Below, one piece after another: positions 15,099 to 47,205 of a stretch of 64,000 bases of DNA (the first letter of the stretch is position 1; each line of letters begins with the position of its first letter). The stretch is taken from IMG/VR virus record IMGVR_UViG_3300022822_000008; one strand, 5' to 3'. The notes beneath the pieces are model-generated. The model made no database searches, had not been told where the DNA came from, and saw only the letters and a list, made by a program, of their open reading frames with translations. The stretch is from a virus (taxonomy: Duplodnaviria; Heunggongvirae; Uroviricota; Caudoviricetes). The position numbers were made by a program, and so were the translations under genes.

Positions 15099-15983
15099 TT
15101 ACTGATTTTTTGTTCCGTAAATGCGATTTTGTGCACCGACGGTTGACATTGCTTCATAAGGCATAAACACAGCGGCCTTATTTTTTGCCATTTCACTTTG
15201 AACTTCTAAGGCGCGTAATGATAACAAGTCTTCGGTAATACCTTCTCCGATTATCTTGTTGGCATCACGAACCGCTTTAGCACGAGTGATTTCAATTTCG
15301 TAATCTTTCAGAGCAAGAACCAATTCGTTCTCTTTCTTGGTCATATCGATTGCGGCCTGTGCCTCTTCTTTTTCAATTGCGAGACGTCTTTCCTCGTTAG
15401 CTTCAATCGAGGCATTAATGACTTCAGGATAATTAATATTACCAATCATCACTTGAGACAATTCAATAGGCGTAGTTTTAAACGATAACAAAACAGCATC
15501 AGCGATTTGTTGGCTTATTCGTTTGTAATTAGTATGAACATCATCGACAGTATATTCGCTGATTATTTCACGAGTTTTATTACGGATGATCATTCGACCA
15601 TACACAGCATAAACTTCATCAAAAGCGACTCGACGATCATCACCAGCCACGATATCATTAAAGATCGTATTCACAACAGACGGATCACTTGAAATTCGAC
15701 CTGAGAACTTAACATCGACGAACAAAGTCAATTTGTCTTTCAGTTTAACTTCAATGTTATTTTCGCTATAAACTTTTGAAGATGTGTCTAAAATGACCAT
15801 ATCATCACGACCGAACAGGGTGTATTTACCAGGTTCTAATACTTCAGGTTGATAACCGGAGGTGGTTAGGATTTTACCTTTACTGGCAGGTTCGACAGTG
15901 TAAAAACCACAGCCGCCTAATGTGATTGCTGTTAATAGTAATAGTGTTTTACTTAGGGTTTTCATTGTTGATCTCATTTTCAA
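15099..15983 (-). CDS. SPFH/band-7 (prohibitin/HflC-like) lipoprotein
   Basis: Lipobox LTAITLGGC; band-7-type coiled-coil C-terminus AIEKEEAQAAIDMTKKENEL. Confidence 0.7.
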   Translation of the reverse strand: MKMRSTMKTLSKTLLLLTAITLGGCGFYTVEPASKGKILTTSGYQPEVLEPGKYTLFGRDDMVILDTSSKVYSENNIEVKLKDKLTLFVDVKFSGRISSDPSVVNTIFNDIVAGDDRRVAFDEVYAVYGRMIIRNKTREIISEYTVDDVHTNYKRISQQIADAVLLSFKTTPIELSQVMIGNINYPEVINASIEANEERRLAIEKEEAQAAIDMTKKENELVLALKDYEIEITRAKAVRDANKIIGEGITEDLLSLRALEVQSEMAKNKAAVFMPYEAMSTVGAQNRIYGTKNQ

Positions 15984-16386
15984 TTTCCTGTTGATTTTGT
16001 TTAATTACTTCAGCTTGTTTGCGGAAGTCTTGGTTTAAAGGGTCTTTTGCACCCTCGGATTTTTCTACGATTGATTTTTGTGTATTTGTGAAACTTGTTT
16101 TACCTGTCATGGAAGTACTTTCCAATCTGACGGGCATTCCTAACAACACAATAATAATAAGACTTACAGCACCGAGCATCTTATATTTGTGGTTTGAAAT
16201 CTTTGTTGCTGTTTCTTCTTCAAGAAACGGTTTTAATAATTTCGTATAAACTAAGCAGAAAACACTTAGCGCTAAAAATGCGGCTATATAGCTATAAATC
16301 ATTGTATTTCTCCACTTTTGTTTTATCATTCCTGAGTTTTTGAATAAACCCAAGGTTCTTTTTACATCTGATACATATTCCATCAC
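15949..16386 (-). CDS. NfeD-like membrane protein partnered with the SPFH gene (35-nt overlap)
   Basis: Two transmembrane helices followed by a soluble C-terminus; operon position typical of NfeD-SPFH pairs. Confidence 0.45.
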   Translation of the reverse strand: MMEYVSDVKRTLGLFKNSGMIKQKWRNTMIYSYIAAFLALSVFCLVYTKLLKPFLEEETATKISNHKYKMLGAVSLIIIVLLGMPVRLESTSMTGKTSFTNTQKSIVEKSEGAKDPLNQDFRKQAEVIKQNQQEIENEINNENPK

Positions 16387-16545: not shown

Positions 16546-17451
16546 TCAACCATTATATTCTTCCATGATGATATCTTTTATTTTGCTCATATCGTTATAT
16601 TCTGGCAAATCACTCGCCTCAAGTTTTTCCGTAACACTATCATACATATCAGTGATTATAGAAACAGCATCTTCTTGAGGTACTTGACCTAATTTGATTT
16701 TCATAATTTCGTCAGCACGAACCAAAGGAAATACTAAATCTCTTGTGTCGATTATTTCCTCAAGTTGGATAATAGCCCTGACTGCATGACTCAATGCCTT
16801 CCAATCGCCACCTGAATGTGAACTTACTACAGTTCGGTCACCGTAACGACTTATTTTTTGCTCCAAACAAGTTTTAAGATGCTCCATACGACAGGTAATT
16901 TGATTGCGGCTGCCACAAATATCAATGTTAGCAATAATATTATCTTTATGTGGAGTGAACGTAATATATTTAAAATCAGATCTCATTATTTGTTCAGGTA
17001 TCGTGGTTTCAGCAACTCTAACACTATCGTGATAAACATGCAACCAATTATTTAGTTCCTGCATTTCCTGATAACGTCTAACTTTATGGCCATATTTCGT
17101 AGACATCGTTTTTATATAACCAAGAATTCCTCTCATATTTTTACAATAAATGCCAGATCTATTTTTCTGAATTTCATCCCAAGCAGGCGTCGAGTTTAGT
17201 GTAAATTCCTTCGGTGTGTGTATCATATCAACAGAAACAGTATCACCCTTGTCTAGCATGCTGAAATATTTTCCAATTGCATACAGCGAAGTGTCAATAT
17301 CATCAGTTTGTTTTTCTATGACAGGTTGAAAATTTCCAAATACAACATCTTCTAAAGTAGGAACAAAAAGGCCTTTGTAATCTGTATCGCTCTGTGGCCT
17401 AGATAATCCATACAGATGCGAACCAAATACTCCATTAAATAAAATTTTCAT
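16546..17451 (-). CDS. Pol-beta-superfamily nucleotidyltransferase (GS..DxD motif)
   Basis: GVFGSHLYGLSRPQSDTDYKG plus a downstream acidic residue in VSVDMIH. Confidence 0.6.
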   Translation of the reverse strand: MKILFNGVFGSHLYGLSRPQSDTDYKGLFVPTLEDVVFGNFQPVIEKQTDDIDTSLYAIGKYFSMLDKGDTVSVDMIHTPKEFTLNSTPAWDEIQKNRSGIYCKNMRGILGYIKTMSTKYGHKVRRYQEMQELNNWLHVYHDSVRVAETTIPEQIMRSDFKYITFTPHKDNIIANIDICGSRNQITCRMEHLKTCLEQKISRYGDRTVVSSHSGGDWKALSHAVRAIIQLEEIIDTRDLVFPLVRADEIMKIKLGQVPQEDAVSIITDMYDSVTEKLEASDLPEYNDMSKIKDIIMEEYNG

Positions 17452-19939: not shown

Positions 19940-20803
19940 TTATACCGCCATAGGAGCTTTTATGTTCGGATGTGGATTGTAGTTTTCTAATTCGTAATCG
20001 CTTGTCTTTGTTTCGAGTAACTCTTCAAGAGTAGTAAAGGCGGGCATTTTCAATGTAGGTGCTTTTCTTGTTGTTCTGCTCAACTGTTCTTCAGCCTGTT
20101 CGACGTGATTAGAATAGACATGAGCGTCACCAATTGTATGGATGAAATCACCTACTTTTAAATCGCAAATCTGAGCTAGCATATGAGTCAACAGCGAATA
20201 ACTTGCTATATTGAATGGTACACCTAAAAAGAAATCAGCGCTGCGTTGATACAACTGACAACTTAATTCACCGTCTTGGACGTGAAATTGAGCAAGACAA
20301 TGACAGGGAGGTAGAGCCATAAATTCGACTTCATTAGCATTCCACGCAGACAATATATGTCTACGGCTATTTGGGTTGTTTTGAAGATCATTAATAAGTT
20401 TTGCTATTTGGTCGTTACCCCAAAATCTCCACTGGAATCCATATACAGGCCCAAGTTCTTTAATCATGGGAGTATTTTCATAACCCAATGCAACACCTTG
20501 ATTGTCAGCGTTTTCTGTCCAAATTGTAGTCTTATCTGCAAGTTCGGCACGAGGTTTTTCAAACCGAATCTCTGCCAACCTGCGTTCGTCTGTATTTCCT
20601 TCAAGGAACCACAACAGTTCTGATACAACACCTTTCCAAGCAAGTTTCTTTGATGTTGGTGCAGGAAATCCATTGCGGAGATTGTATCGAGTTTGCATGC
20701 CAAAAAGACCAATCGTGCCTGTACCCGTTCGGTCGTCGCGGCGTTTGCCATTTTCTAGGATGTATCTTAAATCGCATAAATATCGGTTCATTTTAGCACT
20801 CAT
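19940..20803 (-). CDS. thyA: Thymidylate synthase
   Basis: Hallmark ThyA motifs including the catalytic LPPCH. Confidence 0.95.
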   Translation of the reverse strand: MSAKMNRYLCDLRYILENGKRRDDRTGTGTIGLFGMQTRYNLRNGFPAPTSKKLAWKGVVSELLWFLEGNTDERRLAEIRFEKPRAELADKTTIWTENADNQGVALGYENTPMIKELGPVYGFQWRFWGNDQIAKLINDLQNNPNSRRHILSAWNANEVEFMALPPCHCLAQFHVQDGELSCQLYQRSADFFLGVPFNIASYSLLTHMLAQICDLKVGDFIHTIGDAHVYSNHVEQAEEQLSRTTRKAPTLKMPAFTTLEELLETKTSDYELENYNPHPNIKAPMAV

Positions 20804-26671: not shown

Positions 26672-27148
26672 TTAATTTCTTCCATAACTCATTCTCCTGA
26701 AATATTCATTAATCGTCAACCAATCAGGAAAACGAACACTGCCAAACTGTATAAGTTCACCGTCGAATCTGTCTTGGCCTTTTCCTGATATACAATCATC
26801 TATCAATATATCGCCCTTTGATAGATGTTTAACTGGGCTTATGATGAGTCGTTGCAACACATCAAGGCCCAAATGTTTTTCGATGGAGTTTCTCTTTTCA
26901 GTGTAACAAAGGGGATTCATTACAGAAGGTGCTGTCAAGATGTAGGGGTCGAAATCTGTATGTTTCAGCAATCTATTAAAGGTTTTAATGGCACCTTCGA
27001 TTGGATGGAGATTTTCAAAGAAACCATACTGTGATTGTGGATATTGTATGCTTGGATTTTTTTTGATCATTTCATCAAAACGTCTAGTGAAATGGAACAT
27101 GGTATCATCCATATCAAAGTATACAATAATCTTAGTGTGAAACGTCAT
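26672..27148 (-). CDS. HAD-family 5'(3')-deoxyribonucleotidase-like protein
   Basis: N-terminal DxDxT motif VYFDMDDTMF. Confidence 0.55.
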   Translation of the reverse strand: MTFHTKIIVYFDMDDTMFHFTRRFDEMIKKNPSIQYPQSQYGFFENLHPIEGAIKTFNRLLKHTDFDPYILTAPSVMNPLCYTEKRNSIEKHLGLDVLQRLIISPVKHLSKGDILIDDCISGKGQDRFDGELIQFGSVRFPDWLTINEYFRRMSYGRN

Positions 27149-29166: not shown

Positions 29167-31182
29167 TTAAAAATTAACCTTCAATACCCGATTGAAAGAA
29201 CCTTTGACGCGAACAACAACACTGTTGCGTTGAGTTGAACTGAAACCTAATCCACTTAGTTGTTCCTTTGTGTGTTCAGCTTTAAATTTACTACTTAATA
29301 CTTCAAACACTTTACGATGTTTTACCAAACTTCCGTTCAGGAATTCGTTGTAAAAACCACGCGCGGGTTCAGGATTCAGACAACCATCAAGAATAAAGAA
29401 AACATGCTTGTTGCCAGTTTCACAGTTATCCCAATGATTAGGACTATTCATGATCATAGACACCTTCGTCCATTCGTTTGTATTTACACCCCAAACTTCT
29501 TTTGATGAAGTAGTACTTTCCATCGATTTGGTTATAACCACACCTTTAGATTTGCTGTAATTAAAATGCAACACAGTAACTTTTTTGCCATCGGGTAAAG
29601 CATCAGGATGTTTAATTAATTGAGTAGCGCCTTTTATATCAAGTTCCAATTCAAAACCCACATTAGATGTAGATCGTTTGGAATAATTATGAACAATAAC
29701 TTTATAATTACCTTCAATCATTGTCGATAAGCGATTCCAAGTAATATTTTCTACTGGGTCTGTTTTATTTGAAGGACCTCCAGCATTCATATCAACATCA
29801 AGGAGACCACCGCTGGCACCTTTCTTTGAAGAAAAGTATATAGCATTACCACTAGGTTCGATTACACTTAAGTCCAAATCGTCGCCATTGTACCACGCAA
29901 GACTAAATCGTAATTCACCAGTGACGGATCCACCAGCAGTCTTAACACGTTCCTTTATACCGTCTGTAACTTCTCCATTGTAACTCCAAGAGAAATTATT
30001 ATCCCATTTCAGCATGTTATTTGAATCTGCATCAACAGGCGCGACAACACTCATAAGATTATTAACTTGATTGTTGGCAACTTGCATCTCTATGCTATCA
30101 ACCTTCGGAAGCACTTTTGAGATGAAATCATCAATTGCAATTTCTTCAATTTTATCTGTTTTAGGTATTGAAGATTTAGTCGGTGATAGACCAAGGACGC
30201 CCATTTGTTCTTTAGCAGCTCTGTCTGCAAACAGCACATTATTGATCGTAATGTCATGAACATTAGCAAATCTGCGTTGAAGCGAATTTTCCAGACCAAG
30301 TTCAGTCACGGTCGCTTCTGCACTTGTTATCATGGACTGTGTAATAAGTGAAGTTGTGCGTTTGTAATTCGTTGGCGCAACTTTCGACTCAAATGATTTC
30401 ACTGCTTTTTCAAGTTCAACACCTTCACTTATATCAGCAATAAGAGTTCCAATTACATCATTGCGGAAACGAGCAGCACCTTTTAATTTTGCGGCAAGTG
30501 ACCATATAAAATTGGATTTATTTTGAGTTACAAGAACCGTATAATCAATTTTATATTGTTTGATTGTATTAACCAACTGACGTTTTTCAGTACCGCGATA
30601 TAAGCTGTTTTGTTCAATCAAGTCACTCACGATGTGGATCGCCTCAAGATTAAATTCACGAAGGCTACGTTCCAATACCTGCGAATCAGCAAGTTTACCG
30701 CCTGCGAAGTCACCGTATGATTTACCATGTGGCAATACATATTGTTTAGGAAGTTCAATAAAGAAATGCTCATGTTCAACGGTCTGACCTGAATCAGTCA
30801 GTTCGATATTCATTTTATTGCCGATTTTCTTTTCGTCAGACATAAATTGATTTCTGATATCAAGCGATTTTACATAAGCACTCATTGCATTAGCAACTTC
30901 TTGATAATAACCTTCAACTTCAATATCCCAAATACTTGATATGGATAAGTCTGCATTGATAGAAACTACTCCACCCATTCTACGAATAAATGTTTTGCAA
31001 CAGTTACAGTCATGAACAGTACGTTCTCGATGAATTGGATTTGTGCCTTCAGGAAAAGATGGCAGATATACATTATAATAGATTTCGTCTTTGTCGAAGT
31101 CAACTACAAATAAGGTTTCACCATTCGCTGTCATTTTCTTGAATTGTTTTTCAACTGCTTGTTGAAATATACTGAATTTCAT
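29167..31182 (-). CDS. Large hypothetical protein (671 aa), function unknown
   Basis: Long uninterrupted ORF with an HDCNCC motif near the N-terminus and a beta-rich C-terminal half. Confidence 0.6.
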   Translation of the reverse strand: MKFSIFQQAVEKQFKKMTANGETLFVVDFDKDEIYYNVYLPSFPEGTNPIHRERTVHDCNCCKTFIRRMGGVVSINADLSISSIWDIEVEGYYQEVANAMSAYVKSLDIRNQFMSDEKKIGNKMNIELTDSGQTVEHEHFFIELPKQYVLPHGKSYGDFAGGKLADSQVLERSLREFNLEAIHIVSDLIEQNSLYRGTEKRQLVNTIKQYKIDYTVLVTQNKSNFIWSLAAKLKGAARFRNDVIGTLIADISEGVELEKAVKSFESKVAPTNYKRTTSLITQSMITSAEATVTELGLENSLQRRFANVHDITINNVLFADRAAKEQMGVLGLSPTKSSIPKTDKIEEIAIDDFISKVLPKVDSIEMQVANNQVNNLMSVVAPVDADSNNMLKWDNNFSWSYNGEVTDGIKERVKTAGGSVTGELRFSLAWYNGDDLDLSVIEPSGNAIYFSSKKGASGGLLDVDMNAGGPSNKTDPVENITWNRLSTMIEGNYKVIVHNYSKRSTSNVGFELELDIKGATQLIKHPDALPDGKKVTVLHFNYSKSKGVVITKSMESTTSSKEVWGVNTNEWTKVSMIMNSPNHWDNCETGNKHVFFILDGCLNPEPARGFYNEFLNGSLVKHRKVFEVLSSKFKAEHTKEQLSGLGFSSTQRNSVVVRVKGSFNRVLKVNF

Positions 31183-32416: not shown

Positions 32417-32512
32417 GAGTTTTCCTTGTTAATTCGATATACAAACTATAACAAAAAGGTCAACCGAAGTCAACCTTTTTTATAAAACAATTCACGTTCG
32501 ATTTAATCGTCT

Positions 32513-34261
32513 TTAGATCGAATCAAGAACGTTTTTACGCACTTCTTCGAGCGTTGTTGTCAATATCATTTTAGAGTCCTTAAAAATCGTTTTGAGTTCG
32601 CCTTGTTTTTCTTGTTCCTGAGTTTGCCCATCATATTGAACATAGACGCCATCTTCAAGTTCGATACGTAATAAACCAAATGCAGATTTCTTTTTAGAAT
32701 CAGTTTTTGGGTCTTTACAAACATTAACAGAATTTCCGTTTTCTTCAATGTAAGTTGCTTTTACAGCAGAACCGTGGGTGTCACGACTAACAAACTGATA
32801 AGAATATGAACCAACACCCATTACGACAAGTGGAGCGAAACCTTTTTCCATCAAACGACGGTAAATTTCAGTTTGTCTAACAAGCGTAATTGAATCACCG
32901 TAGATTGCGCCAATTTGGTCGTGCAAGATTTTATATCCAACTTCAGTTTCAACACCACCAAAGATATCCCACAAACATTCAACCAAACCTTTGTCTTCGG
33001 AAGACAATTGCATCTCAGTAAATGTACAAAAGTCAAGATCATCACCGTAGTTATCAACATAATAATAAGTTTTATCATGGCGATTCAGTTCAGGTTCATA
33101 TGTGACTTTATAAGGAGTTCCGTCTGGAGCTCTATAGAATCCAGTTGAGCAGCTTATTGGGTTTGTGCAGTCTTCAGCCAATTCATCACAAAATTCCTCA
33201 TCTAATTCTGCAGCAACGGCTTCTTTCCAAGATTGTACGTTATCATTAAAATCAGTTACTTTTTTGAATTCACGACCACAAAGAACTTCTACAGGATCAC
33301 CAGAATCAGGCCGAACAACAAATTTACCAGAACGAGCAAGGATGTCTTCTTTCAATAAAGGAATACCTTCAGATACAAATTTCCAAAAGTCAAAAGAATC
33401 AGAAACATGCGAAAGGATTTTATTTTCTTTAACTTTAGTAAATAAATATCTGACATACATCAATTCAGCGTCGAATTTGCTAATTCCTTCTTTTTGAGCA
33501 ATTGCCATAATGAATGAAGTTGCTGTGCTGTGTTCAGTTGCATAAACGCTTTTACCTACACATTCACCTTTAACTTTCGCACCATAGTATTTTTCGACAC
33601 CCATAATACCAGCGATAGTATCAGTTCCGAATGAGCTTGTTAATTGACCCATTGAACTCATCATAGCGGCCTCCGGTCCGAACATACCGCGCGCCGAAAA
33701 ATCGTGATTCATAAACCAAGCAACACCTGGATCTACACCAGATGCCAAATAAGCTTTAATGGTATTTTTCAGATAGGCGCGTGAAGTTGTAGCTGAAGTT
33801 TGTAAAGGCCAAACGCATTGACTGTGTAGCGTTTCTAAGTAGTTTCCAATCCAAGCAAAATCATCATGAGTTGTTTGATAAGTAGTACTAGCAACACCGT
33901 AAGGAACCATAACACCTTCAGGTAGAGATTTAATTTCGAGCGGCAAATATTGCAAATCATGCAAAGCTTCAAAGTGCGAAACATCTACATCTTCATCAAG
34001 AATAGCATCAACATGTGACTTTAAAAACTTACAAGCGATAGCTTTATCAACTTGAAAGAAAGTCTCATTCCATTGTTTAATAAGATATTCAGTCACATAA
34101 TACTGATTACCAAAGTTCATAACACCGTCACGTTCTTCATGTGGGATATTACTCAACCGAGAGTTTCGGTTTGTCATGTTACCATAAACTTTAGTTATTC
34201 CATCGATGTAAGCATCTTTATGGAATAACTTATAAGCATCTGTTGCTAGTGCTACAAACAT
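32513..34261 (-). CDS. nadV: Nicotinamide phosphoribosyltransferase (NAMPT/NadV)
   Basis: N-terminus LATDAYKLFHKDAYIDGITKVYGNMTNR matches the NAMPT signature. Confidence 0.8.
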   Translation of the reverse strand: MFVALATDAYKLFHKDAYIDGITKVYGNMTNRNSRLSNIPHEERDGVMNFGNQYYVTEYLIKQWNETFFQVDKAIACKFLKSHVDAILDEDVDVSHFEALHDLQYLPLEIKSLPEGVMVPYGVASTTYQTTHDDFAWIGNYLETLHSQCVWPLQTSATTSRAYLKNTIKAYLASGVDPGVAWFMNHDFSARGMFGPEAAMMSSMGQLTSSFGTDTIAGIMGVEKYYGAKVKGECVGKSVYATEHSTATSFIMAIAQKEGISKFDAELMYVRYLFTKVKENKILSHVSDSFDFWKFVSEGIPLLKEDILARSGKFVVRPDSGDPVEVLCGREFKKVTDFNDNVQSWKEAVAAELDEEFCDELAEDCTNPISCSTGFYRAPDGTPYKVTYEPELNRHDKTYYYVDNYGDDLDFCTFTEMQLSSEDKGLVECLWDIFGGVETEVGYKILHDQIGAIYGDSITLVRQTEIYRRLMEKGFAPLVVMGVGSYSYQFVSRDTHGSAVKATYIEENGNSVNVCKDPKTDSKKKSAFGLLRIELEDGVYVQYDGQTQEQEKQGELKTIFKDSKMILTTTLEEVRKNVLDSI

Positions 34262-34263
34262 AA

Positions 34264-34593
34264 TTATTTTCCTTCTTCATTTTGAATTAATTCAAAATAC
34301 ACCACGGCGCGGCATATTGCTTTTTCGTGCGTTTCATCTTCATTTTCAAATGCGAGAAACCTTTCAAGTTCTTGATTTTCGTGGCACCAGTAATTAGGAC
34401 CAAGACAATCGTAATCTTCATAGCTTTTATTTACGTTGAATTCTTGTGCTATGTAAGCACCACCCGACAATGAAAAGGGATCCAATGGAGCAATCATCCA
34501 TTCATATGAGTTACATATTGCGATTATTGCTTCACTCAACTCGTCATCGGTCATATCGAATACTTTATAATATAATGGTAATTCTTCTCTCAT
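34264..34593 (-). CDS. Hypothetical protein
   Basis: 109 aa between nadV and the prs-like gene. Confidence 0.4.
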   Translation of the reverse strand: MREELPLYYKVFDMTDDELSEAIIAICNSYEWMIAPLDPFSLSGGAYIAQEFNVNKSYEDYDCLGPNYWCHENQELERFLAFENEDETHEKAICRAVVYFELIQNEEGK

Positions 34594-35471
34594 TGTATTT
34601 TACTCATTTTGTTTTTTATTCGTTGATCATCATTATAGGTATTTAGTGATTTTTCAGTTACATAGTCAGCAATGATATTATGAGTATAAATTGCGTCAAT
34701 ATGATCTTTGAATATCTCTAGACCTTTTGCAGCGATTAAGTGAGTGACGTAGAGATCTACTTCATATCCCATTTCTTTCAATTTTACGGCGAGTGGAATA
34801 AAAGTACCTCCACCGTCTAAGATATCATCCACAATTAATACTCTTCGCTTGGATTTAACTAAATCTGCATGTGATTTGCAATTCAATTCCACACTTTCAA
34901 TTCTGCCAGTTTCAAGATTACGTTTCTTTAATGCATACAAAACAGGAACTCCAGACATTTCAGATATCTTTTGTATTTTGGTAACAGCGCCAGCGTCAGG
35001 AGAAACTATATAATCGTAATCTGCCATTTGGATATGAGATTTTTTCAAAGTTTCCCGTAGGCAAGTCGCCTGTGTATTAATAACGTAGTTAAGATAATGA
35101 TGATCTAAGGCCTGTTCATTATGCGGGTCGTTGATGTGGATTTCGTCAAAGTTAAATCTTGACAACCAATCTTGAAATACTCTCAGAGGCTCAGTATTTC
35201 CAGTTTGAAAGATTCTATCCGCACGAGCGTAAGGTAAATATCCCAATACTAGAATTTCTTGAATATTATCCATATCGAAAGTATCATAAATTGCATAGTA
35301 AAGCATTTCCATTTTTTCTTTCATTAGAGGAATGTTGTTAGTTTCATCTGTCACATCGATTGAGATGTATTTTTCAATTACTGCATCTGGGTCAACACGA
35401 CAGGTAATAGCAGAATCAGAGAAGGTTAACCATTGTACGTCGATCACTTCGTTGTTAGATATTAGTTGCAT
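34590..35471 (-). CDS. prs: Ribose-phosphate pyrophosphokinase-like protein (PRPP synthetase family)
   Basis: VSPDAGAV..KI flexible-loop motif and PRPP-binding loop RRVLIVDDILDGGGT. Confidence 0.65.
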   Translation of the reverse strand: MQLISNNEVIDVQWLTFSDSAITCRVDPDAVIEKYISIDVTDETNNIPLMKEKMEMLYYAIYDTFDMDNIQEILVLGYLPYARADRIFQTGNTEPLRVFQDWLSRFNFDEIHINDPHNEQALDHHYLNYVINTQATCLRETLKKSHIQMADYDYIVSPDAGAVTKIQKISEMSGVPVLYALKKRNLETGRIESVELNCKSHADLVKSKRRVLIVDDILDGGGTFIPLAVKLKEMGYEVDLYVTHLIAAKGLEIFKDHIDAIYTHNIIADYVTEKSLNTYNDDQRIKNKMSKIQ

Positions 35472-35554
35472 TATATAGATTCTCTTTATGTTGTTTAACG
35501 CGATAGGTCTATTATAACAAGATTATAACGACCTGTCAACCCTTATTTCAATTA

Positions 35555-36136
35555 TTAATGAATTAAAGCACCAGCGGGCATTTTTGGGAATTTGTAAATT
35601 GTTGCAGTTTTCGTAGGCGTTTTAACAATCGGAGTTTGTGTTACCTTAGCGTCTGGATGTATCAGAACAACCGCAGGTTCGAACGTCTCAGCGACACCCT
35701 TTGTGAGGATATATGGCTTATCGTGTGAACCGATGTTGATGTCTACGTAGTGTGAGCGGTGAAAATAATCAGTCATCGTATCGTCATCATTAAAAAATGA
35801 TGGTCCTTCCATTGCAGTTTTCAATTCCTCAAGGAACTGAGTGACAGTAGGACAATCGAACGACTCTGATATCCAATATGTGTTAACATCAATGCAATCT
35901 CTCGTTAGAACGTAGTTGAGGCGTTGTACATCATAAACATCATACATATCGTTTTTAAGACTTTTCAAAGCATTTCGTTTGTTCGCGGCAAGAAGGTCAA
36001 GGTCGCCTGATTTTATGTTAACGATGAGTGTGCTATGATGACGGACACCGATTGTACCTTTCATTCCAAATTTTTTCAAAACAGCCTTGATAGCCGGAGC
36101 GAGGTTTTTTTTGTTTTCTTGTGAAATATAAGCCAT
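35555..36136 (-). CDS. Hypothetical protein
   Basis: 193-aa ORF. Confidence 0.45.
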   Translation of the reverse strand: MAYISQENKKNLAPAIKAVLKKFGMKGTIGVRHHSTLIVNIKSGDLDLLAANKRNALKSLKNDMYDVYDVQRLNYVLTRDCIDVNTYWISESFDCPTVTQFLEELKTAMEGPSFFNDDDTMTDYFHRSHYVDINIGSHDKPYILTKGVAETFEPAVVLIHPDAKVTQTPIVKTPTKTATIYKFPKMPAGALIH

Positions 36137-36184: not shown

Positions 36185-36214
36185 ATTATATCAAAGATTC
36201 ATCTTCAAGTCAAC
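36185..36214 (-). promoter_or_regulatory. Early promoter cassette with conserved leader
   Basis: GTTGAC-17-TTGATATAATATTTATATTGAATCGAAACACAAAC. Confidence 0.6.
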
Positions 36215-36594: not shown

Positions 36595-36624
36595 ATTATA
36601 TCAAGTCTCACCTTCAAGTCAACT
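36595..36624 (-). promoter_or_regulatory. Early promoter cassette with conserved leader
   Basis: GTTGAC-17-TTGATATAATAGTTGTATTGAATCGAAACACAAACG. Confidence 0.6.
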
Positions 36625-39360: not shown

Positions 39361-40536
39361 TCATAATTTCATCCCTAACCAAGTTGAAAATTTATCCCAC
39401 TTAGTATTTGATCCTACATTAGATTTCACTTTAGACATCATCATATCTTCAACCTTCTTTGAATCAAGATATCCGAATATAAAGTAACCCAGAGACTTGT
39501 CGTCAAGTTGAGTAATGAATTCCAGCGCAATTGCTTTGCGATTGTCTCCGTACATATTCACAACAAACTTACACATCAGTCCTATTTCAAGTTCTTTATC
39601 TTCGATAGATTTGAAAAACAAGGCTTGTGTATCTTTAACTTTTTTCACATCAGCTTCAAGTAAAATAGGCAACACATCATCAACTTCGTTATTAATAATT
39701 AAATTAATAATATTACGCTGAGAACGTACTAAGTCTTTTACTTTATGAATGCGAACATACCACTCGTTTTTGATTTTAATCATATGACCGGAATCAAATC
39801 GAATAACGACACCCTCGCGTCCTTCCTCTAATTTTATTCCATCAGAAAACCCTTTTAAATTCTTATCAACTTGTCCGTATTCAGGTGCTTTATTAAAAGG
39901 AGGGTAATCTTCGAGAGGTAAGTATTCGCCTGTAATGTTATGACGAAGTGCTAACAAAACCAAATCAGCTGCTTCATATTCCAATACTATTTGATTATCA
40001 GGCGCGATAAATTCAAACAAAGGAGTCACATTAAATCTTAGACATTTTTCCATCCATCCGTAGGATATAGCAGAATCTTCCAATCCTGCAAGATAGGTTT
40101 CAGCCTGCATTGCAACATCAGTCACTCCCATTTTTGTACCTAAGCGAATATGACCATCAACCACAAAAGGGCGAATCATCGAACCATCCATTTTTTCCAT
40201 GACCGTATGAGGTTGAGTAATATCTACAACAGATGGTTGTGTTTCCTCACGTTCATTAAGATTGAAGAACTTATGGAATGGACGGCTGATGATTCGGCCC
40301 GTAGTATCGAAGATTAAACCGCGACATTCTCGGCGCATTGAACCAGTAAGAGGATTTCCTGCAATATCAAAAGTATCATCTTTACAGACGACATAGTTAA
40401 TTACAGTATAACCTTCTTTTTCGACTACAACAAACTCGGTGCGGCCTTCGATGTGCGGTAATACATCTTCGATTGTGTTGATAATTGGAAATTTATAATT
40501 CATTTTTTGCTTCCGCCTTGACCCATTGAAATCCAT
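39361..40536 (-). CDS. rnlA: RNA ligase 1 (T4 RnlA / gp63 family)
   Basis: ECRGLIFD, KFFNLNE and nucleotidyltransferase motif I EKMDGSM align with T4 Rnl1. Confidence 0.8.
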   Translation of the reverse strand: MDFNGSRRKQKMNYKFPIINTIEDVLPHIEGRTEFVVVEKEGYTVINYVVCKDDTFDIAGNPLTGSMRRECRGLIFDTTGRIISRPFHKFFNLNEREETQPSVVDITQPHTVMEKMDGSMIRPFVVDGHIRLGTKMGVTDVAMQAETYLAGLEDSAISYGWMEKCLRFNVTPLFEFIAPDNQIVLEYEAADLVLLALRHNITGEYLPLEDYPPFNKAPEYGQVDKNLKGFSDGIKLEEGREGVVIRFDSGHMIKIKNEWYVRIHKVKDLVRSQRNIINLIINNEVDDVLPILLEADVKKVKDTQALFFKSIEDKELEIGLMCKFVVNMYGDNRKAIALEFITQLDDKSLGYFIFGYLDSKKVEDMMMSKVKSNVGSNTKWDKFSTWLGMKL

Positions 40537-40916
40537 ACATCAATATTTGGATTGCTAACATCTAAGCCGTAAGACATAAATATGGGTTTTAGCGATCCTC
40601 TGTACTTAGCATTAACTATATCGTGAAAGCTTTGAATGTCTTTAAACAGATTTGCGTTATCTAAAATAATGTCGGGTAACAGATGTCTATCAAATGTATT
40701 AATTAAATCTTCTACATCACCCTGAAATTCCATTAAGTCTTTATTGTTATGATCCAATAAAAATCCTATTGAGCAATGTAGGCCGTCCCGGGTTCCATAT
40801 GCACAAGTGCCAAATAGTGTTATTGATTGCTCTCCTTGAAGTACCAATCGATCAATTACATAGTCGAAATTTTCTTGTAAGTTCATTTCAATATCTCCTG
40901 TTATTAATTTATGCAA
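40500..40916 (-). CDS. Hypothetical protein, distant member of the LQG..C.YG..C.IG family
   Basis: VLQGEQSITLFGTCAYGTRDGLHCSIGFLL; lies between the pnk kinase ORF and rnlA. Confidence 0.4.
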   Translation of the reverse strand: MHKLITGDIEMNLQENFDYVIDRLVLQGEQSITLFGTCAYGTRDGLHCSIGFLLDHNNKDLMEFQGDVEDLINTFDRHLLPDIILDNANLFKDIQSFHDIVNAKYRGSLKPIFMSYGLDVSNPNIDVWISMGQGGSKK

Positions 40917-40932
40917 CCATTATAACAAAATT

Positions 40933-41475
40933 TTAATCAGTGTCAACGACTAATTGACTCATTAACAAACCAGCCATCTCGCCATAAATATCTATAAATA
41001 TCACAGTATCAAATCCTTCTTTAAGAGTAGGTTCTTGATAAGATTCCTTCATGCTTTTTAATATGCCTGGCGGTATAGTCTTACCTGGTCGACTTTCAAG
41101 ACGTCGATTCCATTCCGCAATATCTTTTTCTGTTTTTGCAGGCAAAAAAGTCTGGCAAACTACTGTATAGCCTGCTTTGGTCATACGTTCCACGATCACT
41201 TTTCGCTTTTTAGAAGTGAGGTTAGTTTGATCCCATATAACATCTTGATTGTTCACTATGGCTTGAGTTAAACCCACTTCGCAAACTTTAATAGCAGGTT
41301 TAATCGTTTCCATAAAAACATCATTATATGTTTTATCTTCCAATTTAGCTACGGATTCTATATAAGCATCCGACGAATACACAAAAATATTTTTTGATGC
41401 TTTAGACGTCATTGTGCTTTTTCCTGAGGCAGGAAGACCAACCATTACGTGACAGAACTTTTGTTTCGTTTCCAT
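40933..41475 (-). CDS. pnk: Polynucleotide 5'-kinase domain protein (T4 Pnk N-terminal-domain homolog) as a stand-alone ORF
   Basis: Walker A GLPASGKST; SSDAYIE and DQTNLTSKKRK align with T4 Pnk kinase motifs. Confidence 0.65.
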   Translation of the reverse strand: METKQKFCHVMVGLPASGKSTMTSKASKNIFVYSSDAYIESVAKLEDKTYNDVFMETIKPAIKVCEVGLTQAIVNNQDVIWDQTNLTSKKRKVIVERMTKAGYTVVCQTFLPAKTEKDIAEWNRRLESRPGKTIPPGILKSMKESYQEPTLKEGFDTVIFIDIYGEMAGLLMSQLVVDTD

Positions 41476-41933
41476 TAGAAATCTACTCCACTTTGATTAC
41501 AATCAAATACCCAGATGCCTTCTTCGCGCCACATTTTGACAACACGAGGACGATCATCGAATACCATATCAGGCATCTGTTTATAACTTTCTATGATACC
41601 ATATAAGATTTCTCTCTTTACGATTGAGTCGCAGCGATAGTCACCGAATCTACGCATGTATAAATCATCATATTCTCCCATGCCATTTTCGCTCAACCAC
41701 GTTTCAGTATCTTTTCGTGTATCGTCAGAACGCCCAGATGCAAAGATTACATACACATTTGGATCTTCAATATAACGGATGCAAACGTCAACGGTTGCTT
41801 TAATAGGCAAATCAAATTTAATGGCCTTATTAAAAGCAGGCCAGTTTTTTGGTTTACATCTCACATATTTTAAACGGTGATCCAAGTTTGCAACAGTTCC
41901 ATCAATGTCAAACACTACTAATAATTTACTCAT
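41475..41933 (-). CDS. Polynucleotide 3'-phosphatase domain protein (HAD; T4 Pnk C-terminal-domain homolog) as a stand-alone ORF upstream of the kinase ORF
   Basis: DxDGT motif VVFDIDGTVA; C-terminus DDRPRVVKMWREEGIWVFDCNQSGVDF closely matches the T4 Pnk C-terminus. Confidence 0.7.
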   Translation of the reverse strand: MSKLLVVFDIDGTVANLDHRLKYVRCKPKNWPAFNKAIKFDLPIKATVDVCIRYIEDPNVYVIFASGRSDDTRKDTETWLSENGMGEYDDLYMRRFGDYRCDSIVKREILYGIIESYKQMPDMVFDDRPRVVKMWREEGIWVFDCNQSGVDF

Positions 41934-46185: not shown

Positions 46186-47205
46186 TTATTTTTCTTTCAA
46201 CAGATATTTATTGCTTATTGCTTTGAAACTTTTTTGGCCGTCATGGCTTTTAAATACTAAACCTTCTCGATTAGTACTATTTAGAATACTCATTCCGTCT
46301 GCATCTTTAATAATATCAGAAGCAGTTGTATATCGTACAGACAGAGGCGTATAGTATAAAACAGGCACTGAATCTATCCCAACACGTTTAAATTCGAATC
46401 TTGCATCTGGGGTTAAGTATCGTTGTGTTTGTATATCGAATATATCAAATACCTTAAATTGAGTTTTATCAAGTTTGTAGATGTTTTTCTGAATGCCTGG
46501 TCCGATAAGCTCACCTTGAATCGCAATATTATCCCAATATCTACCATCAATAAATCCACAATTTCTCATCTTTGTTTCGATATCTAAACGTCTTGCGCAT
46601 TCCCAAAAGCCATTACCTTCGGTCTCTTTAAGATCGAGATTTCTGCTACATACACCAAATTCACCGTCAATTAGATAACAGGTCATTGAACTGCCTTCTA
46701 ATTTTTCTGTAATTTCCCATGATTCAGGAGAAGTCAAATAGTTGGCAACATGAGACATACAATTTTGAATTCTTTCTTGATCTGTTTTTCTTATTTGCGG
46801 AGGGAAATTACCTTTGGCCATACCTGCAAGTTGAGCATTTACGGGAGGATCGTATTTAGCGATATTCAAAATTTCAGAAACATCGTCACCGATATCCCAA
46901 AAGTCAGTTAGGAGTTCAGTAGATAATATTAGACCTTGACTAATTTGCCCGCGCAATTTAATTGTTCTGAGGCGTTCACCTTTCACGCCTTCATACGTGC
47001 GAGGTTCTTTTCCTTTAGATAGAAACGGTGCCAAATCTATAGGTATCCAACTGTCAATTTCACAAAAAACAATTATCTGTCCTTCGTTGTATTCACCTTT
47101 TCTGATTACAACTTTCCAGCCGTCTACGGTCGCGACTTCAATTGCGTCAGCGTTTTCGATTGGGCTCACGTCGCTAATCATTCGTACTGTTGCCATCTGT
47201 CTCAT
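46186..47205 (-). CDS. Rnl2-superfamily RNA ligase with an extra N-terminal (OB-like) domain and no Rnl2 C-terminal domain (Rnl5/DraRnl-like architecture)
   Basis: Motif I EKLEGSS; GELIGPGIQKNIYKLDKTQFKVFDIFD aligns with T4 Rnl2 GEFAGPGIQKNV...FYVFDI; motif IV EGLVFKS; motif V KAISNK. Confidence 0.7.
   Translation of the reverse strand: MRQMATVRMISDVSPIENADAIEVATVDGWKVVIRKGEYNEGQIIVFCEIDSWIPIDLAPFLSKGKEPRTYEGVKGERLRTIKLRGQISQGLILSTELLTDFWDIGDDVSEILNIAKYDPPVNAQLAGMAKGNFPPQIRKTDQERIQNCMSHVANYLTSPESWEITEKLEGSSMTCYLIDGEFGVCSRNLDLKETEGNGFWECARRLDIETKMRNCGFIDGRYWDNIAIQGELIGPGIQKNIYKLDKTQFKVFDIFDIQTQRYLTPDARFEFKRVGIDSVPVLYYTPLSVRYTTASDIIKDADGMSILNSTNREGLVFKSHDGQKSFKAISNKYLLKEK

What the first reader, a model, noticed from the sequence alone, without database searches (positions are those of the whole stretch)
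32513..35471. NAD+ salvage module: NAMPT plus a PRPP-synthetase-like gene
A 582-aa nicotinamide phosphoribosyltransferase (N-terminal LATDAYK..H signature) is followed, after a 109-aa ORF, by a Prs-like protein with the PRPP-binding loop VLIVDDILDGGGT and the VSPDAGAV flexible loop. NAMPT consumes PRPP, so co-encoding Prs would supply substrate for NMN and NAD+ regeneration during infection. This may counter NAD+-depleting defence systems (Thoeris, DSR, CBASS-NADase, SIR2). No NMN adenylyltransferase was recognised in this window.
Basis: partly seen in the sequence, partly recalled or inferred. Interest (0 to 1): 0.55.

Follow-up and report, generated by a model that had tools for sequence, protein, structure and literature searches.

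The report
Phage NAD+ rebuilding operon (NARP1)
The two genes are real, but they most likely form the already described phage pathway NARP1, which rebuilds NAD+ directly from the fragments left by bacterial NAD+-destroying defences, rather than a PRPP-to-NMN salvage route; this is a new, uncultured-phage example of a known counter-defence.

Summary
All three ORFs are at the stated coordinates on the minus strand: Prs-like (293 aa), a 109-aa ORF, and NAMPT-like (582 aa). They form one tight unit with a perfect sigma-70 consensus promoter upstream and a hairpin terminator downstream.

This locus fits NARP1. Adps converts ADP-ribose and ATP to ADPR-PP, and Namat joins ADPR-PP to nicotinamide to give NAD+. 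No NMNAT is needed.

- **Prs-like protein.** It falls below every curated Prs cutoff, as validated Adps enzymes do (82 bits against a cutoff of 113; E. coli Prs scores 423). In a tree it sits between validated ICP1 and SPbetaL1 Adps (197/200 bootstraps). It keeps the catalytic Lys and the ADPR/ATP contact residues.
- **NAMPT-like protein.** It carries the Namat-specific adenine clamp motif (GSYSYQFVSRD). Its best solved match by sequence and fold is SPbetaL1 Namat.
- **Rest of the window.** No NMNAT, Nudix, Macro or RyR domain was found.

Two features are not described in the NARP1 papers read here: a three-cluster ORFan family wedged between adps and namat, and a folded ~92-aa insertion in Namat shared by many marine-phage relatives.

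Verdict: new member of a known kind; modest interest.

The parts
35511..35539 (-). Promoter-like site TTGACA-17 nt-TATAAT with an extended -10 TG (12/12 match), 40 nt upstream of the adps start codon
   Evidence: scan; sequence. The total number of promoter-like sites in the region is not above chance (23 against 19.2 expected), so only the perfect match and its position argue for it. Its function is inferred.
34590..35471 (-). adps: Prs-like ADP-ribose pyrophosphokinase (ADPR-PP synthetase), 293 aa
   Evidence: It scores below all curated Prs cutoffs, as validated Adps enzymes do. It scores 144 bits against ICP1-type Adps and 47 bits against E. coli Prs. It lies inside the clade bracketed by validated Adps (197/200). 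It lacks the N-terminal helix and the C-terminal alpha11-alpha12 of Prs.
34887..34931 (-). Catalytic beta-hairpin of Adps (LKKRNLETGRIESVE). K182 is equivalent to ICP1 K185 and SPbetaL1 K162.
   Evidence: K185A and K162A abolish activity in the published enzymes (PMC13586617; Osterman 2024).
34800..34829 (-). PP loop of Adps (DDILDGGGTF). D215/D216/D219/F224 are equivalent to ICP1 D212/D213/D216/F221.
   Evidence: F224 is Phe in 38/39 phage-type sequences and Leu/Ile in E. coli and human Prs. I217 is Ile/Leu in 39/39 and Met in both Prs.
34264..34593 (-). orf109: small conserved ORFan. Its start overlaps the adps stop (ATGA) and it ends 2 nt before the namat start.
   Evidence: Only two other clusters match among 1.84 billion representatives (47% and 59% identity). 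Both lie between adps and namat in related metagenomic phages. There is no Pfam, PHROG or NCBIfam hit. The AF2 model is poor (pLDDT 62).
32513..34261 (-). namat: NAMPT-like nicotinamide ADP-ribose transferase, 582 aa
   Evidence: The best PDB match by sequence (E 2.9e-95) and by fold (E 2e-46, TM 0.93) is SPbetaL1 Namat (9W5X/9W5W). The catalytic His244 and R317 are conserved.
32780..32812 (-). Namat selectivity-clamp helix motif GSYSYQFVSRD, with aromatic Y486 and F490 at motif positions 3 and 7
   Evidence: The published Namat consensus is G-S-X-phi-X-phi-X-phi-T-R-D with X aromatic. SPbetaL1 has GSFTYQYNTRD, H. ducreyi NadV has GAQTYQRNTRD and human NAMPT has GGGLLQKLTRD.
32996..33271 (-). 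92-aa insertion in Namat (residues 331-422), absent from SPbetaL1, ICP1 and FADO Namat and from NAMPT
   Evidence: It is predicted with confidence as a folded helix plus five-stranded module (block pLDDT 81-96). The insertion length ranges from 10 to 106 aa among 58 marine relatives and is about 93 aa in many.
32453..32480 (-). Terminator-like hairpin (12-bp stem, T-rich tail) 33 nt downstream of the namat stop codon
   Evidence: This is a pattern match only, and the count in the region is not above chance.

Best explanation
This is a NARP1 (NAD+ reconstitution pathway 1) operon of an uncultured marine phage whose longest known contig is about 210 kb.

- **Trigger.** When a host defence (SIR2, TIR or SEFIR type NADase) cleaves NAD+ into ADP-ribose and nicotinamide, the pathway's substrates appear.
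- **Step 1.** The Prs-like enzyme (Adps) transfers the beta,gamma-pyrophosphate of ATP to the 1'' hydroxyl of ADP-ribose, giving ADPR-PP.
- **Step 2.** The NAMPT-like enzyme (Namat) displaces that pyrophosphate with nicotinamide and regenerates NAD+ directly. No PRPP, NMN or NMN adenylyltransferase is involved.
- **Expression.** The genes are probably transcribed early by host RNA polymerase from a consensus sigma-70 promoter, as one unit: adps, orf109, namat.

Shown here: homology, diagnostic residues and motifs, clade membership, synteny, and the absence of NMNAT in the window. Inferred from published enzymology of homologues: the two reactions and the counter-defence role. Unknown: the function of orf109 and of the Namat insertion.
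For: 1. Published experiments on the same gene pair. In Bas63, SPbetaL1, FADO and ICP1 the 'Prs' makes ADPR-PP from ADPR and ATP. The SPbetaL1 enzyme gave no product in the PRPP-synthetase assay. The 'NAMPT' makes NAD+ from ADPR-PP and nicotinamide. Of Adps-clade genes, 97% have Namat within 10 genes.
2. Adps side, scores.
 - Against TIGR01251 (cutoff 113 bits) the window protein scores 82. Validated or Adps-type proteins score 98 (ICP1-type), 106 (SPbetaL1) and 96.5 (FADO). E. coli Prs scores 423.
 - By blastp it scores 144 bits against ICP1-type Adps, 47 against E. coli Prs and 31 against human PRPS1.
3. Adps side, tree. In a neighbour-joining tree of 41 sequences the window protein lies inside the clade spanned by ICP1 and SPbetaL1 Adps, excluding Prs, in 197/200 bootstraps.
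4. Adps side, residues. ICP1 residues F18, R87, F92, H121, D161, K185, D212, D213, D216 and F221 correspond to window F17, R83, F88, H117, D159, K182, D215, D216, D219 and F224. The clade signatures G189, I191, I217 and F224 are all present. The Prs N-terminal helix and C-terminal alpha11-alpha12 are missing.
5. Namat side. [quoted passage not shown] R35 aligns with the SCL stacking residue R40. H244 and R317 are conserved. SPbetaL1 Namat is the best solved relative by sequence (323 bits, against 289 for H. ducreyi NadV and 152 for human NAMPT) and by fold.
6. Context. The genes overlap or abut. A 12/12 promoter and a hairpin flank the unit. No NMNAT, Nudix, Macro, RyR, PnuC or NadR domain was found in about 140 window ORFs. 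Three long-insert Namat relatives also sit directly beside an Adps-like gene.
Against: - No enzymology exists for these particular proteins. Identity to validated enzymes is moderate: Adps is 36% identical to the ICP1 type and 26% to SPbetaL1; Namat is 50% and 41%.
- The PP loop differs from ICP1 at several ATP-contact positions (L218, G221, G222, T223 and P226 against C215, A218, A219, S220 and F223). Its DGGGT resembles canonical Prs.
- The Namat motif ends in SRD, not TRD.
- The sequence margin of Namat over a true bacterial NadV is small (323 against 289 bits).
- Namat enzymes retain some PRPP-to-NMN activity in vitro, so some NMN formation is not excluded.
- The tree uses only two canonical Prs as outgroup and a distance method.
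- Only 64 kb of a genome of at least 210 kb was seen, so an NMNAT elsewhere cannot be ruled out.
Confidence: 0.85

Rival explanations
1. The Prs-like protein is a true PRPP synthetase that feeds a true NAMPT, producing NMN. A host or unseen phage NMN adenylyltransferase then converts NMN to NAD+ (a NARP2-like or classical salvage route).
For: Both proteins belong to the Prs and NAMPT superfamilies. The NAMPT-like protein just passes the NCBIfam PRK09198 cutoff (412.8 against 405). The DGGGT in the PP loop resembles canonical Prs. Namat enzymes can make NMN from PRPP in vitro. Only part of the genome was seen.
Against: - The Prs-like protein fails every curated Prs threshold and the Prs-specific Pfam domains. 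It groups with validated Adps rather than Prs.
- The SPbetaL1 homologue showed no PRPP synthetase activity.
- The NAMPT-like protein has the adenine clamp that true NAMPT/NadV lack.
- PRK09198 is also passed by validated Namats, so it does not discriminate.
- No NMNAT is present in the window.
- Osterman et al. report that 94% of phages with a KVP40-type Nampt also encode Nmnat, and they found no phage with both pathways.
- In Bas63 the counter-defence worked in a host lacking pncC and nadR.
Confidence: 0.06
2. The chemistry is NARP1, but the role is general NAD+ housekeeping for phage metabolism rather than counter-defence. For example, it could compensate for NAD+ consumed by phage or host ADP-ribosyltransferases or ligases.
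For: The window encodes a large nucleotide and RNA-repair metabolism set (ThyA, SHMT, NT5C, ligases), typical of phages that remodel host metabolism. No defence system or host is known for this phage.
Against: The NARP1 substrates, free ADPR plus nicotinamide, accumulate mainly when an NADase is active. In Bas63 infections ADPR-PP was detected only when the defence system was present. All tested NARP1 operons counter NADase defences and not a non-NADase control. The window's DNA ligase is the ATP-dependent type.
Confidence: 0.08
3. The three genes form an extended NARP1 in which orf109 is a third, functional component. This would be analogous to the Macro-domain phosphatase Adpp of NARP1-AP or to the cADPR glycosidase/sponge RyDEP. 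orf109 would convert or capture another NAD+-derived molecule so that it can enter the pathway, or it would protect ADPR from host Nudix hydrolases.
For: - orf109 occupies the position Adpp holds in Vibrio phage Gary (Adps, Adpp, Namat) and appears translationally coupled (ATGA overlap and 2-nt gap).
- Its only homologues are in the same slot in related phages.
- Twenty invariant, mostly polar or charged residues (K56, E59, Y61, C70, H71, N73, E77, E87, H89, E90, K91, R95) suggest a ligand or catalytic site rather than a spacer.
Against: - No similarity to Macro, RyR or any other family, even at E up to 10.
- No structural match, and the model is poor.
- The family has only three clusters.
- In one relative (L013/L014) the homologue is split over three frames, so it looks dispensable or decaying.
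- Wider relatives with the same long-insert Namat have adps and namat directly adjacent.
- Small unrelated genes commonly insert between phage genes.
Confidence: 0.2

Closest known systems
NARP1 (Adps + Namat) of phages Bas63, SPbetaL1, FADO and ICP1 (Osterman et al. 2024; structures PMC12774641 and PMC13586617)
   Same: Same two protein families in the same order (adps upstream of namat) and on the same strand. The catalytic Lys, the acceptor and donor residues and the truncated Prs scaffold are shared in Adps. The NAMPT catalytic core plus the aromatic SCH clamp motif are shared in Namat. No NMNAT is present. The operon lies in an early-gene region.
   Different: - Sequence identity to characterised members is moderate (36-50% to ICP1, 26-41% to SPbetaL1).
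- A 109-aa ORFan lies between the two genes.
- Namat carries a ~92-aa folded insertion and an extra ~11-aa segment after the catalytic His.
- The Namat motif ends in SRD instead of TRD.
- The PP loop is DDILDGGGTF, against DDICDGAASF in ICP1.
- The phage is uncultured and has no nucleotide-level match in INPHARED.
NARP1-AP of Vibrio phage Gary (Adps, Macro-domain ADPR-1''-phosphatase Adpp, Namat; Osterman et al. 2026 preprint 10.64898/2026.01.28.702374)
   Same: Three-gene architecture with an extra gene between adps and namat. Marine and Vibrio-type phage background.
   Different: The middle gene here is 109 aa and shows no Macro-domain signal (PF01661, PF14519, PF20016) by hmmscan. Its low-confidence model is all-helical. 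No Macro protein was found anywhere in the window.
NARP2 of Vibrio phage KVP40 (NadV Nampt + NatV Nmnat/Nudix)
   Same: A phage-encoded NAMPT-family enzyme used to restore NAD+ under NADase defence.
   Different: NARP2 uses PRPP to make NMN and then NAD+, it needs an Nmnat, and it has no Adps. The window has an Adps, no Nmnat, and the adenine clamp motif. I did not retrieve the KVP40 NadV sequence (one search missed it), so there is no direct sequence comparison. H. ducreyi NadV (9KE8) served as the bona fide Nampt comparator.
Canonical ribose-phosphate pyrophosphokinase (Prs/PRPS; TIGR01251) with bacterial NadV salvage
   Same: Same folds and the same pyrophosphoryl-transfer and phosphoribosyl-transfer chemistry. 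The DD..D.GGT PP loop and the catalytic K-x-R are retained.
   Different: Below the Prs family cutoffs. Lacks the N-terminal helix and the C-terminal alpha11-alpha12 regulatory and filament elements. Carries clade-specific residues (G189, I191, I217, F224). Bacterial prs genes are only very rarely next to a NAMPT homologue.
RyDEP (RyR-domain cADPR glycosidase or sponge next to NARP1 in mycobacteriophage DyoEdafos; PMC13232231)
   Same: A small accessory protein encoded beside NARP1 that feeds ADPR into the pathway. This is a precedent for what orf109 might be.
   Different: orf109 has no PF02026 signal. It does not show the H75/W78/H100/D117 pattern as far as can be judged without an alignment, and it has no conserved Trp.

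Membership tests
NARP1 Adps (ADPR-PP synthetase) | Belongs to the phage Adps clade, separate from cellular Prs | tested here: met
   In a neighbour-joining tree of 41 sequences the window protein lies inside the clade spanned by ICP1-type and SPbetaL1 Adps, excluding E. coli and human Prs, in 197/200 bootstraps. By blastp it scores 144 bits against ICP1-type Adps and 47 bits against E. coli Prs. Caveat: only two outgroup sequences and a distance method.
NARP1 Adps (ADPR-PP synthetase) | Catalytic lysine on the beta-hairpin (ICP1 K185, SPbetaL1 K162) | tested here: met
   K182 aligns with both, and the column is invariant in 41/41 sequences. This residue is also present in Prs, so it is necessary but not discriminating.
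NARP1 Adps (ADPR-PP synthetase) | ADPR-binding and ATP-binding residues of the ICP1 structure (F18, R87, F92, H121, D161, D212, D213, D216, F221; PP loop) | tested here: met
   Window F17, R83, F88, H117, D159, D215, D216, D219 and F224 are all conserved. PP-loop positions 218, 221-223 and 226 differ from ICP1 (L, G, G, T, P against C, A, A, S, F) but match the majority of the clade.
NARP1 Adps (ADPR-PP synthetase) | Loss of the Prs C-terminal alpha11-alpha12 regulatory and filament module | tested here: met
   The alignment ends about 20 residues before the E. coli and human Prs C-termini. A ~15-residue N-terminal helix is also absent. Length is 293 aa, against 315 and 318.
NARP1 Adps (ADPR-PP synthetase) | Namat homologue within 10 genes | tested here: met
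   Namat is two genes downstream in the same tight unit.
NARP1 Adps (ADPR-PP synthetase) | Enzyme activity: ADPR + ATP gives ADPR-PP + AMP, with no PRPP synthesis | not testable with these tools
   Requires purified protein and LC-MS.
NARP1 Namat (nicotinamide ADPR transferase) | SCH clamp motif G-S-X-phi1-X-phi2-X-phi3-T-R-D with aromatic X at positions 3 and 7 | tested here: met
   The window has GSYSYQFVSRD (Y486, F490; phi = S, Q, V). The only deviation is S for T before RD. H. ducreyi NadV has Q and R at those positions, and human NAMPT has G and K.
NARP1 Namat (nicotinamide ADPR transferase) | SCL loop supplying a stacking residue (third residue Arg, Lys or Tyr) | tested here: inconclusive
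   R35 aligns with SPbetaL1 R40. The loop is 4-5 residues longer and the register of a variable loop cannot be fixed from sequence. Model block pLDDT there is 75.
NARP1 Namat (nicotinamide ADPR transferase) | Conserved NAMPT catalytic core (phospho-His; Arg equivalent to SPbetaL1 R306) | tested here: met
   H244 and R317 are invariant in 62 aligned sequences.
NARP1 Namat (nicotinamide ADPR transferase) | Closer to validated Namat than to NMN-forming Nampt | tested here: met
   By phmmer it scores 323 bits against SPbetaL1 Namat, 289 against H. ducreyi NadV and 152 against human NAMPT. Foldseek gives E 2e-46 (TM 0.93) against Namat, 4e-42 against NadV and 3e-35 against human NAMPT. The margin over NadV is modest.
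NARP1 Namat (nicotinamide ADPR transferase) | Preference for ADPR-PP over PRPP; product is NAD+ | not testable with these tools
   Requires an enzyme competition assay.
   It scores 82 bits against a cutoff of 113, and 82.7 against 296 for the best equivalog. There is no PF13793 or PF14572 hit at E up to 0.01; only PF00156 hits. E. coli Prs scores 423 and 533 bits.
NARP2 (Nampt + Nmnat) | An NMN adenylyltransferase encoded by the same phage, and no Adps | tested here: not met
   No CTP_transf_like, NUDIX or NadR hit in about 140 ORFs of the window, and an Adps is present. The rest of the genome (at least 210 kb) was not seen.
NARP1-AP (with Adpp phosphatase) | Macro-domain protein (PF14519, PF01661 or PF20016) within two genes of the operon | tested here: not met
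   No Macro hit for orf109, orf193, orf110 or any other window ORF by hmmscan. The published survey used HHpred, which is more sensitive, so a very divergent Macro fold is not strictly excluded.
RyDEP (RyR R12-domain protein) | PF02026 RyR domain | tested here: not met
   No hit for orf109 or its homologues even at E up to 10, and none elsewhere in the window.

The most novel reading that the evidence does not exclude
orf109 and its two known homologues, always wedged between adps and namat, could be a previously unrecognised third component of an extended NARP1. It might be a small enzyme or binding protein that channels another NAD+-derived product or immune signal into ADPR, or shields ADPR from host hydrolases. 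That would widen the set of NADase defences the operon can beat, as Adpp does for aRES and RyDEP does for Thoeris signals. The conserved ~92-aa insertion domain of the marine Namat subclade could be its docking site or a regulatory module.
Probability: 0.15. Interest if true: 0.55.

Novelty: new member of a known kind. Interest (0 to 1): 0.27.

Why it matters
**Practical lesson.** This gene pair is still labelled 'ribose-phosphate pyrophosphokinase + nicotinamide phosphoribosyltransferase' in nearly all phage records that matched. An unaided reader, or an annotation pipeline, will therefore infer the wrong pathway and look for a non-existent NMNAT. Recognising the pair as NARP1 predicts that this uncultured marine phage meets NAD+-depleting defences in its host.

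**Possible leads.** Two things go beyond the NARP1 papers read here.
- The adps-namat junction in this lineage is a slot that collects small accessory genes (orf109, and a 68-71-aa family in relatives). Two known NARP1 accessory enzymes were found by examining such neighbouring genes.
- A large marine subclade of Namat carries a confidently folded insertion domain that the solved SPbetaL1 structure lacks.

Tried and rejected
- **Megablast of the 4.2-kb locus against INPHARED phages:** no match. The phage is not a sequenced isolate.
- **tblastn of orf109 against phages:** nothing. The word-indexed search of 5.8 billion proteins found only the protein itself. The full HMMER scan of 1.84 billion representatives added just two clusters.
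- **AF2 model of orf109 from a 3-sequence alignment:** pLDDT 62, with the conserved core below 50. Foldseek against PDB gave only noise (best E 3.6), so I draw no fold conclusion.
- **orf109 as Macro (Adpp) or RyR (RyDEP):** considered and rejected on present evidence. No Pfam signal even at E up to 10.
- **KVP40 NadV as a NARP2 comparator:** I guessed its position and fetched the wrong 50 kb, which held structural genes. I did not pursue it and used H. ducreyi NadV (9KE8) and human NAMPT instead.
- **9KE8 as a possible phage protein:** a tblastn showed it is not. Foldseek later named it HdNadV.
- **First bootstrap scripts:** one crashed on name handling and one timed out. One run had undefined distances for very divergent pairs (88-90/100). 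The corrected run is.
- **Upstream 193-aa ORF (35555..36136):** conserved next to the operon in relatives but has no family hit other than PHROG 10415 of unknown function. It is separated from adps by the promoter, so I did not count it as part of the system.
- **PS17B-2 'phosphatase' upstream of its adps:** no Pfam hit by hmmscan, so I could not confirm it as Adpp.

Full report
**1. What is in the sequence**

- a Prs-like gene at 34590..35471 (293 aa);
- a 109-aa ORF at 34264..34593;
- a NAMPT-like gene at 32513..34261 (582 aa).

The quoted peptides (LATDAYK..H, VLIVDDILDGGGT, VSPDAGAV) are present. The 109-aa ORF starts inside the stop codon of the upstream gene (ATGA) and ends 2 nt before the NAMPT-like start, whose Shine-Dalgarno-like GAAGGA lies inside it.

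Forty nucleotides upstream of the first gene is a 12/12 sigma-70 consensus with an extended -10 (TTGACA-17-TATAAT, 35539 to 35511). A 12-bp hairpin with a T-rich tail follows the last gene (32480 to 32453). The overall counts of such sites are not above shuffled expectation. Only the perfection and placement of these two sites suggest a single early transcription unit.

The window is a block of about 140 small genes, 138 of them on the minus strand, at 35% G+C. It encodes an ATP-dependent DNA ligase, ThyA, SHMT, NT5C, two RNA ligases and a split PNKP. This is a typical early region of a large phage. The same sequence occurs on 11 metagenomic contigs, the longest of 210,608 bp. It has no nucleotide-level relative among 50,697 deposited phage genomes.

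**2. Family assignment at face value**

- PHROG 448 'NAMPT', E 2.9e-156;
- PHROG 619 'ribose-phosphate pyrophosphokinase', E 9.6e-60;
- Pfam PF04095, E 1.6e-24.

The Prs-like protein, however, hits only the generic phosphoribosyltransferase domain PF00156 (E 3e-7).

**3. What the literature says about this gene pair**

Osterman et al. (bioRxiv 10.1101/2024.02.11.579819) started from the same annotation-based idea: Prs makes PRPP, NAMPT makes NMN. They showed it to be wrong.
- Deleting the pair from phage Bas63 sensitised it to SIR2-HerA.
- Protection did not need the host NMN-to-NAD+ enzymes PncC and NadR.
- Infected cells accumulated ADPR-pyrophosphate.
- The purified SPbetaL1 'Prs' gave no product in the PRPP-synthetase assay but pyrophosphorylated ADP-ribose. 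It was named Adps.
- The 'NAMPT' joined ADPR-PP to nicotinamide to give NAD+ directly and preferred ADPR-PP over PRPP. It was named Namat.

The pathway, NARP1, was found in 859 phages (4.3%). Of Adps-clade genes, 97% have Namat nearby.

Later structural work defined diagnostic features.
- **Adps (PMC13586617).** The work on Vibrio phage ICP1 Adps named the ADPR and ATP contacts and the catalytic K185. It also showed loss of the Prs C-terminal regulatory helices.

**4. Testing the Prs-like protein**

I fetched validated or genetically tested Adps from an ICP1-type phage (JSF1), SPbetaL1 and FADO. In JSF1 every residue cited in the ICP1 paper has the same number. I also fetched E. coli Prs.

- **Curated thresholds.** Against TIGR01251 (cutoff 113 bits) the window protein scores 82. 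The Adps references score 98, 106 and 96.5, a related Vibrio phage scores 94.6, and E. coli Prs scores 423. The window protein therefore behaves like Adps and fails Prs membership.
- **Pairwise scores.** It scores 144 bits against ICP1-type Adps over the full length, 79 and 71 against the Bacillus-phage Adps, 47 against E. coli Prs and 31 against human PRPS1.
- **Tree.** A neighbour-joining tree used 41 sequences: 34 metagenomic relatives, 5 phage proteins and 2 Prs.
  - The window protein groups with three close relatives (200/200).
  - That group lies inside a marine-phage group whose sister is ICP1 Adps.
  - The clade joining the window protein and ICP1 excludes Prs and the Bacillus-phage Adps in 197/200 replicates.
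  - The window protein lies within the span of ICP1 and SPbetaL1 Adps, excluding Prs, in 197/200.
  - An earlier run with undefined distances gave 88-90/100.
- **Residues.** ICP1 F18, R87, F92, H121, D161, K185, D212, D213, D216 and F221 correspond to window F17, R83, F88, H117, D159, K182, D215, D216, D219 and F224.
- **Clade signatures.** Four positions separate the 39 phage-type sequences from the two Prs, and the window protein has all four:
  - G189, present in 39/39 and a gap in Prs;
  - I/L191, against S or V in Prs;
  - I/L217, against M in Prs;
  - F224, present in 38/39, against L or I in Prs.
- **Truncations.** The N-terminal helix and the last ~20 residues of Prs are missing.
- **Differences from ICP1.** Several PP-loop positions differ (DDILDGGGTF against DDICDGAASF), but the window version is the majority form in the clade.

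The PDB copy held no Adps chain that matched. The best solved relative by sequence was an archaeal Prs, 4TWB, at E 9e-12.

**5. Testing the NAMPT-like protein**

- **Best solved relatives.** The best match by sequence is SPbetaL1 Namat (9W5X/9W5W; E 2.9e-95, 323 bits). Next come 9KE8 (289 bits) and human NAMPT (152 bits).
- **Fold.** A high-confidence AF2 model (pLDDT 92, pTM 0.88) gives the same order by Foldseek. Namat scores E 2e-46 with TM 0.93. 9KE8, identified there as Haemophilus ducreyi NadV, scores 4e-42. Human NAMPT scores 3e-35.
- **Clamp motif.** The window has GSYSYQFVSRD (32780..32812). Tyr and Phe occupy the two adenine-stacking positions. SPbetaL1 has F and Y there, NadV has Q and R, and human NAMPT has G and K. 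All 58 marine relatives examined have GSYSYQ[YFMH]x[TS]RD or a near variant.
- **Other residues.** R35 aligns with the SCL stacking residue R40, but the loop is longer, so I call that feature inconclusive. The catalytic His244 and Arg317 (SPbetaL1 R306) are invariant.
- **A non-discriminating test.** The NCBIfam model PRK09198 is passed by the window protein (413 against 405) but also by all validated Namats.

**6. Context**

Pfam scans of about 140 window ORFs found no NMN adenylyltransferase, Nudix, NadR, PnuC, Macro or RyR domain. This fits NARP1, which needs only the two enzymes. It argues against NARP2 (KVP40-type Nampt plus Nmnat) and NARP3 (PnuC plus NadR), at least within the 64 kb seen.

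**7. Features not described in the NARP1 papers read here**

*(a) orf109.*
- It has no hit in Pfam, PHROGs, NCBIfam or deposited phages.
- An exhaustive HMMER scan of 1.84 billion cluster representatives found only two other clusters, one of 114 aa at 47% identity and one of 55 aa.
- Both lie between adps and namat in related metagenomic phages (L015, L016, L013).
- Twenty positions are invariant, most of them polar (K56, E59, Y61, C70, H71, N73, E77, E87, H89, E90, K91, R95).
- In L013/L014 the homologue is broken across three reading frames. This suggests decay, although both assemblies may derive from one sample.
- Those relatives also carry a second small gene (68-71 aa) in the same gap. 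Vibrio phage PS17B-2 has an unrelated 49-aa ORF there.
- Wider relatives have the two enzymes directly adjacent.
- The position recalls the Macro-domain phosphatase Adpp of the Adps-Adpp-Namat operon of phage Gary (NARP1-AP) and the NARP1-neighbouring RyDEP. No similarity to either was detectable, and the structure model is too poor to use.

*(b) The Namat insertion.*
- Namat carries a 92-aa insertion (residues 331-422; 32996..33271) that SPbetaL1, ICP1, FADO, NadV and human NAMPT lack.
- It is predicted with confidence as a long helix plus a five-stranded sheet.
- Insertions of 10 to 106 aa occur at this site in marine relatives. About 93 aa, with a conserved Y-x-V-T-Y-x-P-x-L-N-R-H-D-K-T-Y-Y-Y-V-D-N core, is common.
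- It is therefore a subclade trait, not unique to this phage. Its role is unknown.

**8. Mechanism, with shown and inferred steps separated**

Shown here:
- the gene order, and the promoter-like and terminator-like sites flanking it;
- Adps-clade membership and active-site conservation;
- the Namat clamp motif and the conserved catalytic core;
- the absence of an NMNAT in the window.

Inferred from homologues' enzymology:
- Adps transfers the ATP beta,gamma-pyrophosphate to ADPR;
- Namat replaces the pyrophosphate with nicotinamide to give NAD+;
- the operon neutralises defences that cleave NAD+ to ADPR and nicotinamide (SIR2-HerA, DSR1/2, type I Thoeris, SEFIR). It would not be expected to beat aRES, whose product ADPR-1''-P needs Adpp.

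Not known: the host, the defences actually met, and the functions of orf109 and the insertion.

**9. Verdict**

This is a new member of the known NARP1 system, from an uncultured phage whose closest isolated relatives infect marine Gammaproteobacteria (Vibrio, Alteromonas, Pseudoalteromonas, Rheinheimera). Interest is modest. The only open leads are the small accessory gene in the adps-namat slot and the Namat insertion domain.

Noticed in passing
window 34590..35471, compared with loci L009 and L010: Two strain variants of the same phage differ from the window at 20-21 positions inside adps (12-13 synonymous, 8 non-synonymous: S104T, D109N, N128D, Q148K, A150T, I155V, H201Y, V229I). They differ at 0 positions in the adjacent 2,079 bp of orf109 plus namat. 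This could be a local diversity hot spot or a recombination tract confined to adps.
   Followed up: partly
L013 7102..7419 (also L014): In a related metagenomic phage the orf109 homologue is split over three reading frames (45, 55 and 30 aa pieces). It looks like a pseudogene, unless this is an assembly error shared by two assemblies of possibly the same sample.
   Followed up: partly
L015 6879..7094, L016 5215..5427, L013 6896..7102: Relatives carry a second small conserved gene (68-71 aa; motif ADHGQ ... EDGET) directly after adps. The window lacks it. The adps-namat junction seems to collect small genes.
   Followed up: partly
window 39361..41933 and 46186..47205; also 16546..17451: There is an RNA-repair set. 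It comprises a T4 Rnl1-like RNA ligase (39361..40536), a polynucleotide kinase-phosphatase split into two abutting ORFs in reversed order (HAD phosphatase 41475..41933, then P-loop kinase 40933..41475), an Rnl2/PHA02142-like ligase (46186..47205) and an RlaP-family nucleotidyltransferase (16546..17451). This probably counters tRNA-cleaving defences. The split PNKP is unusual.
   Followed up: no
window 57077..58234 and 19940..20803: The phage encodes a serine hydroxymethyltransferase (PF00464, E 1e-146) together with a thymidylate synthase (E 7e-101). This implies a phage-supplied one-carbon and dTMP supply. An NT5C-type 5'-nucleotidase lies at 26672..27148.
   Followed up: no
window 29167..31182: A 671-aa protein has no Pfam hit in my scan but is recorded as DUF8224 in the precomputed table. 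It is conserved a few genes downstream of namat in the related phages.
   Followed up: no
window 35555..36136: A 193-aa protein (PHROG 10415, function unknown) lies immediately upstream of the operon promoter. It is conserved at 67-76% identity in the same position in relatives L015 and L013. No domain was detected.
   Followed up: partly
window 15099..15977: A phage-encoded SPFH/Band 7 protein (PF01145, E 9e-17), with a 144-aa ORF (15949..16383) overlapping its start.
   Followed up: no
window 36185..36213 and 36595..36622 (minus strand): Two more near-perfect sigma-70 promoter-like sites (11/12, both with an extended -10 TG) lie upstream of the neighbouring small genes. This is consistent with a host-RNA-polymerase-transcribed early region.
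   Followed up: no
L001 3530..3970 (Vibrio phage PS17B-2) and hits H19-H29: Many related Vibrio phages have a gene annotated 'phosphatase' or 'Appr-1-p processing protein' directly upstream of adps. These are probably NARP1-AP operons with Adpp. hmmscan gave no Pfam hit for the PS17B-2 protein, so this is unconfirmed.
   Followed up: partly
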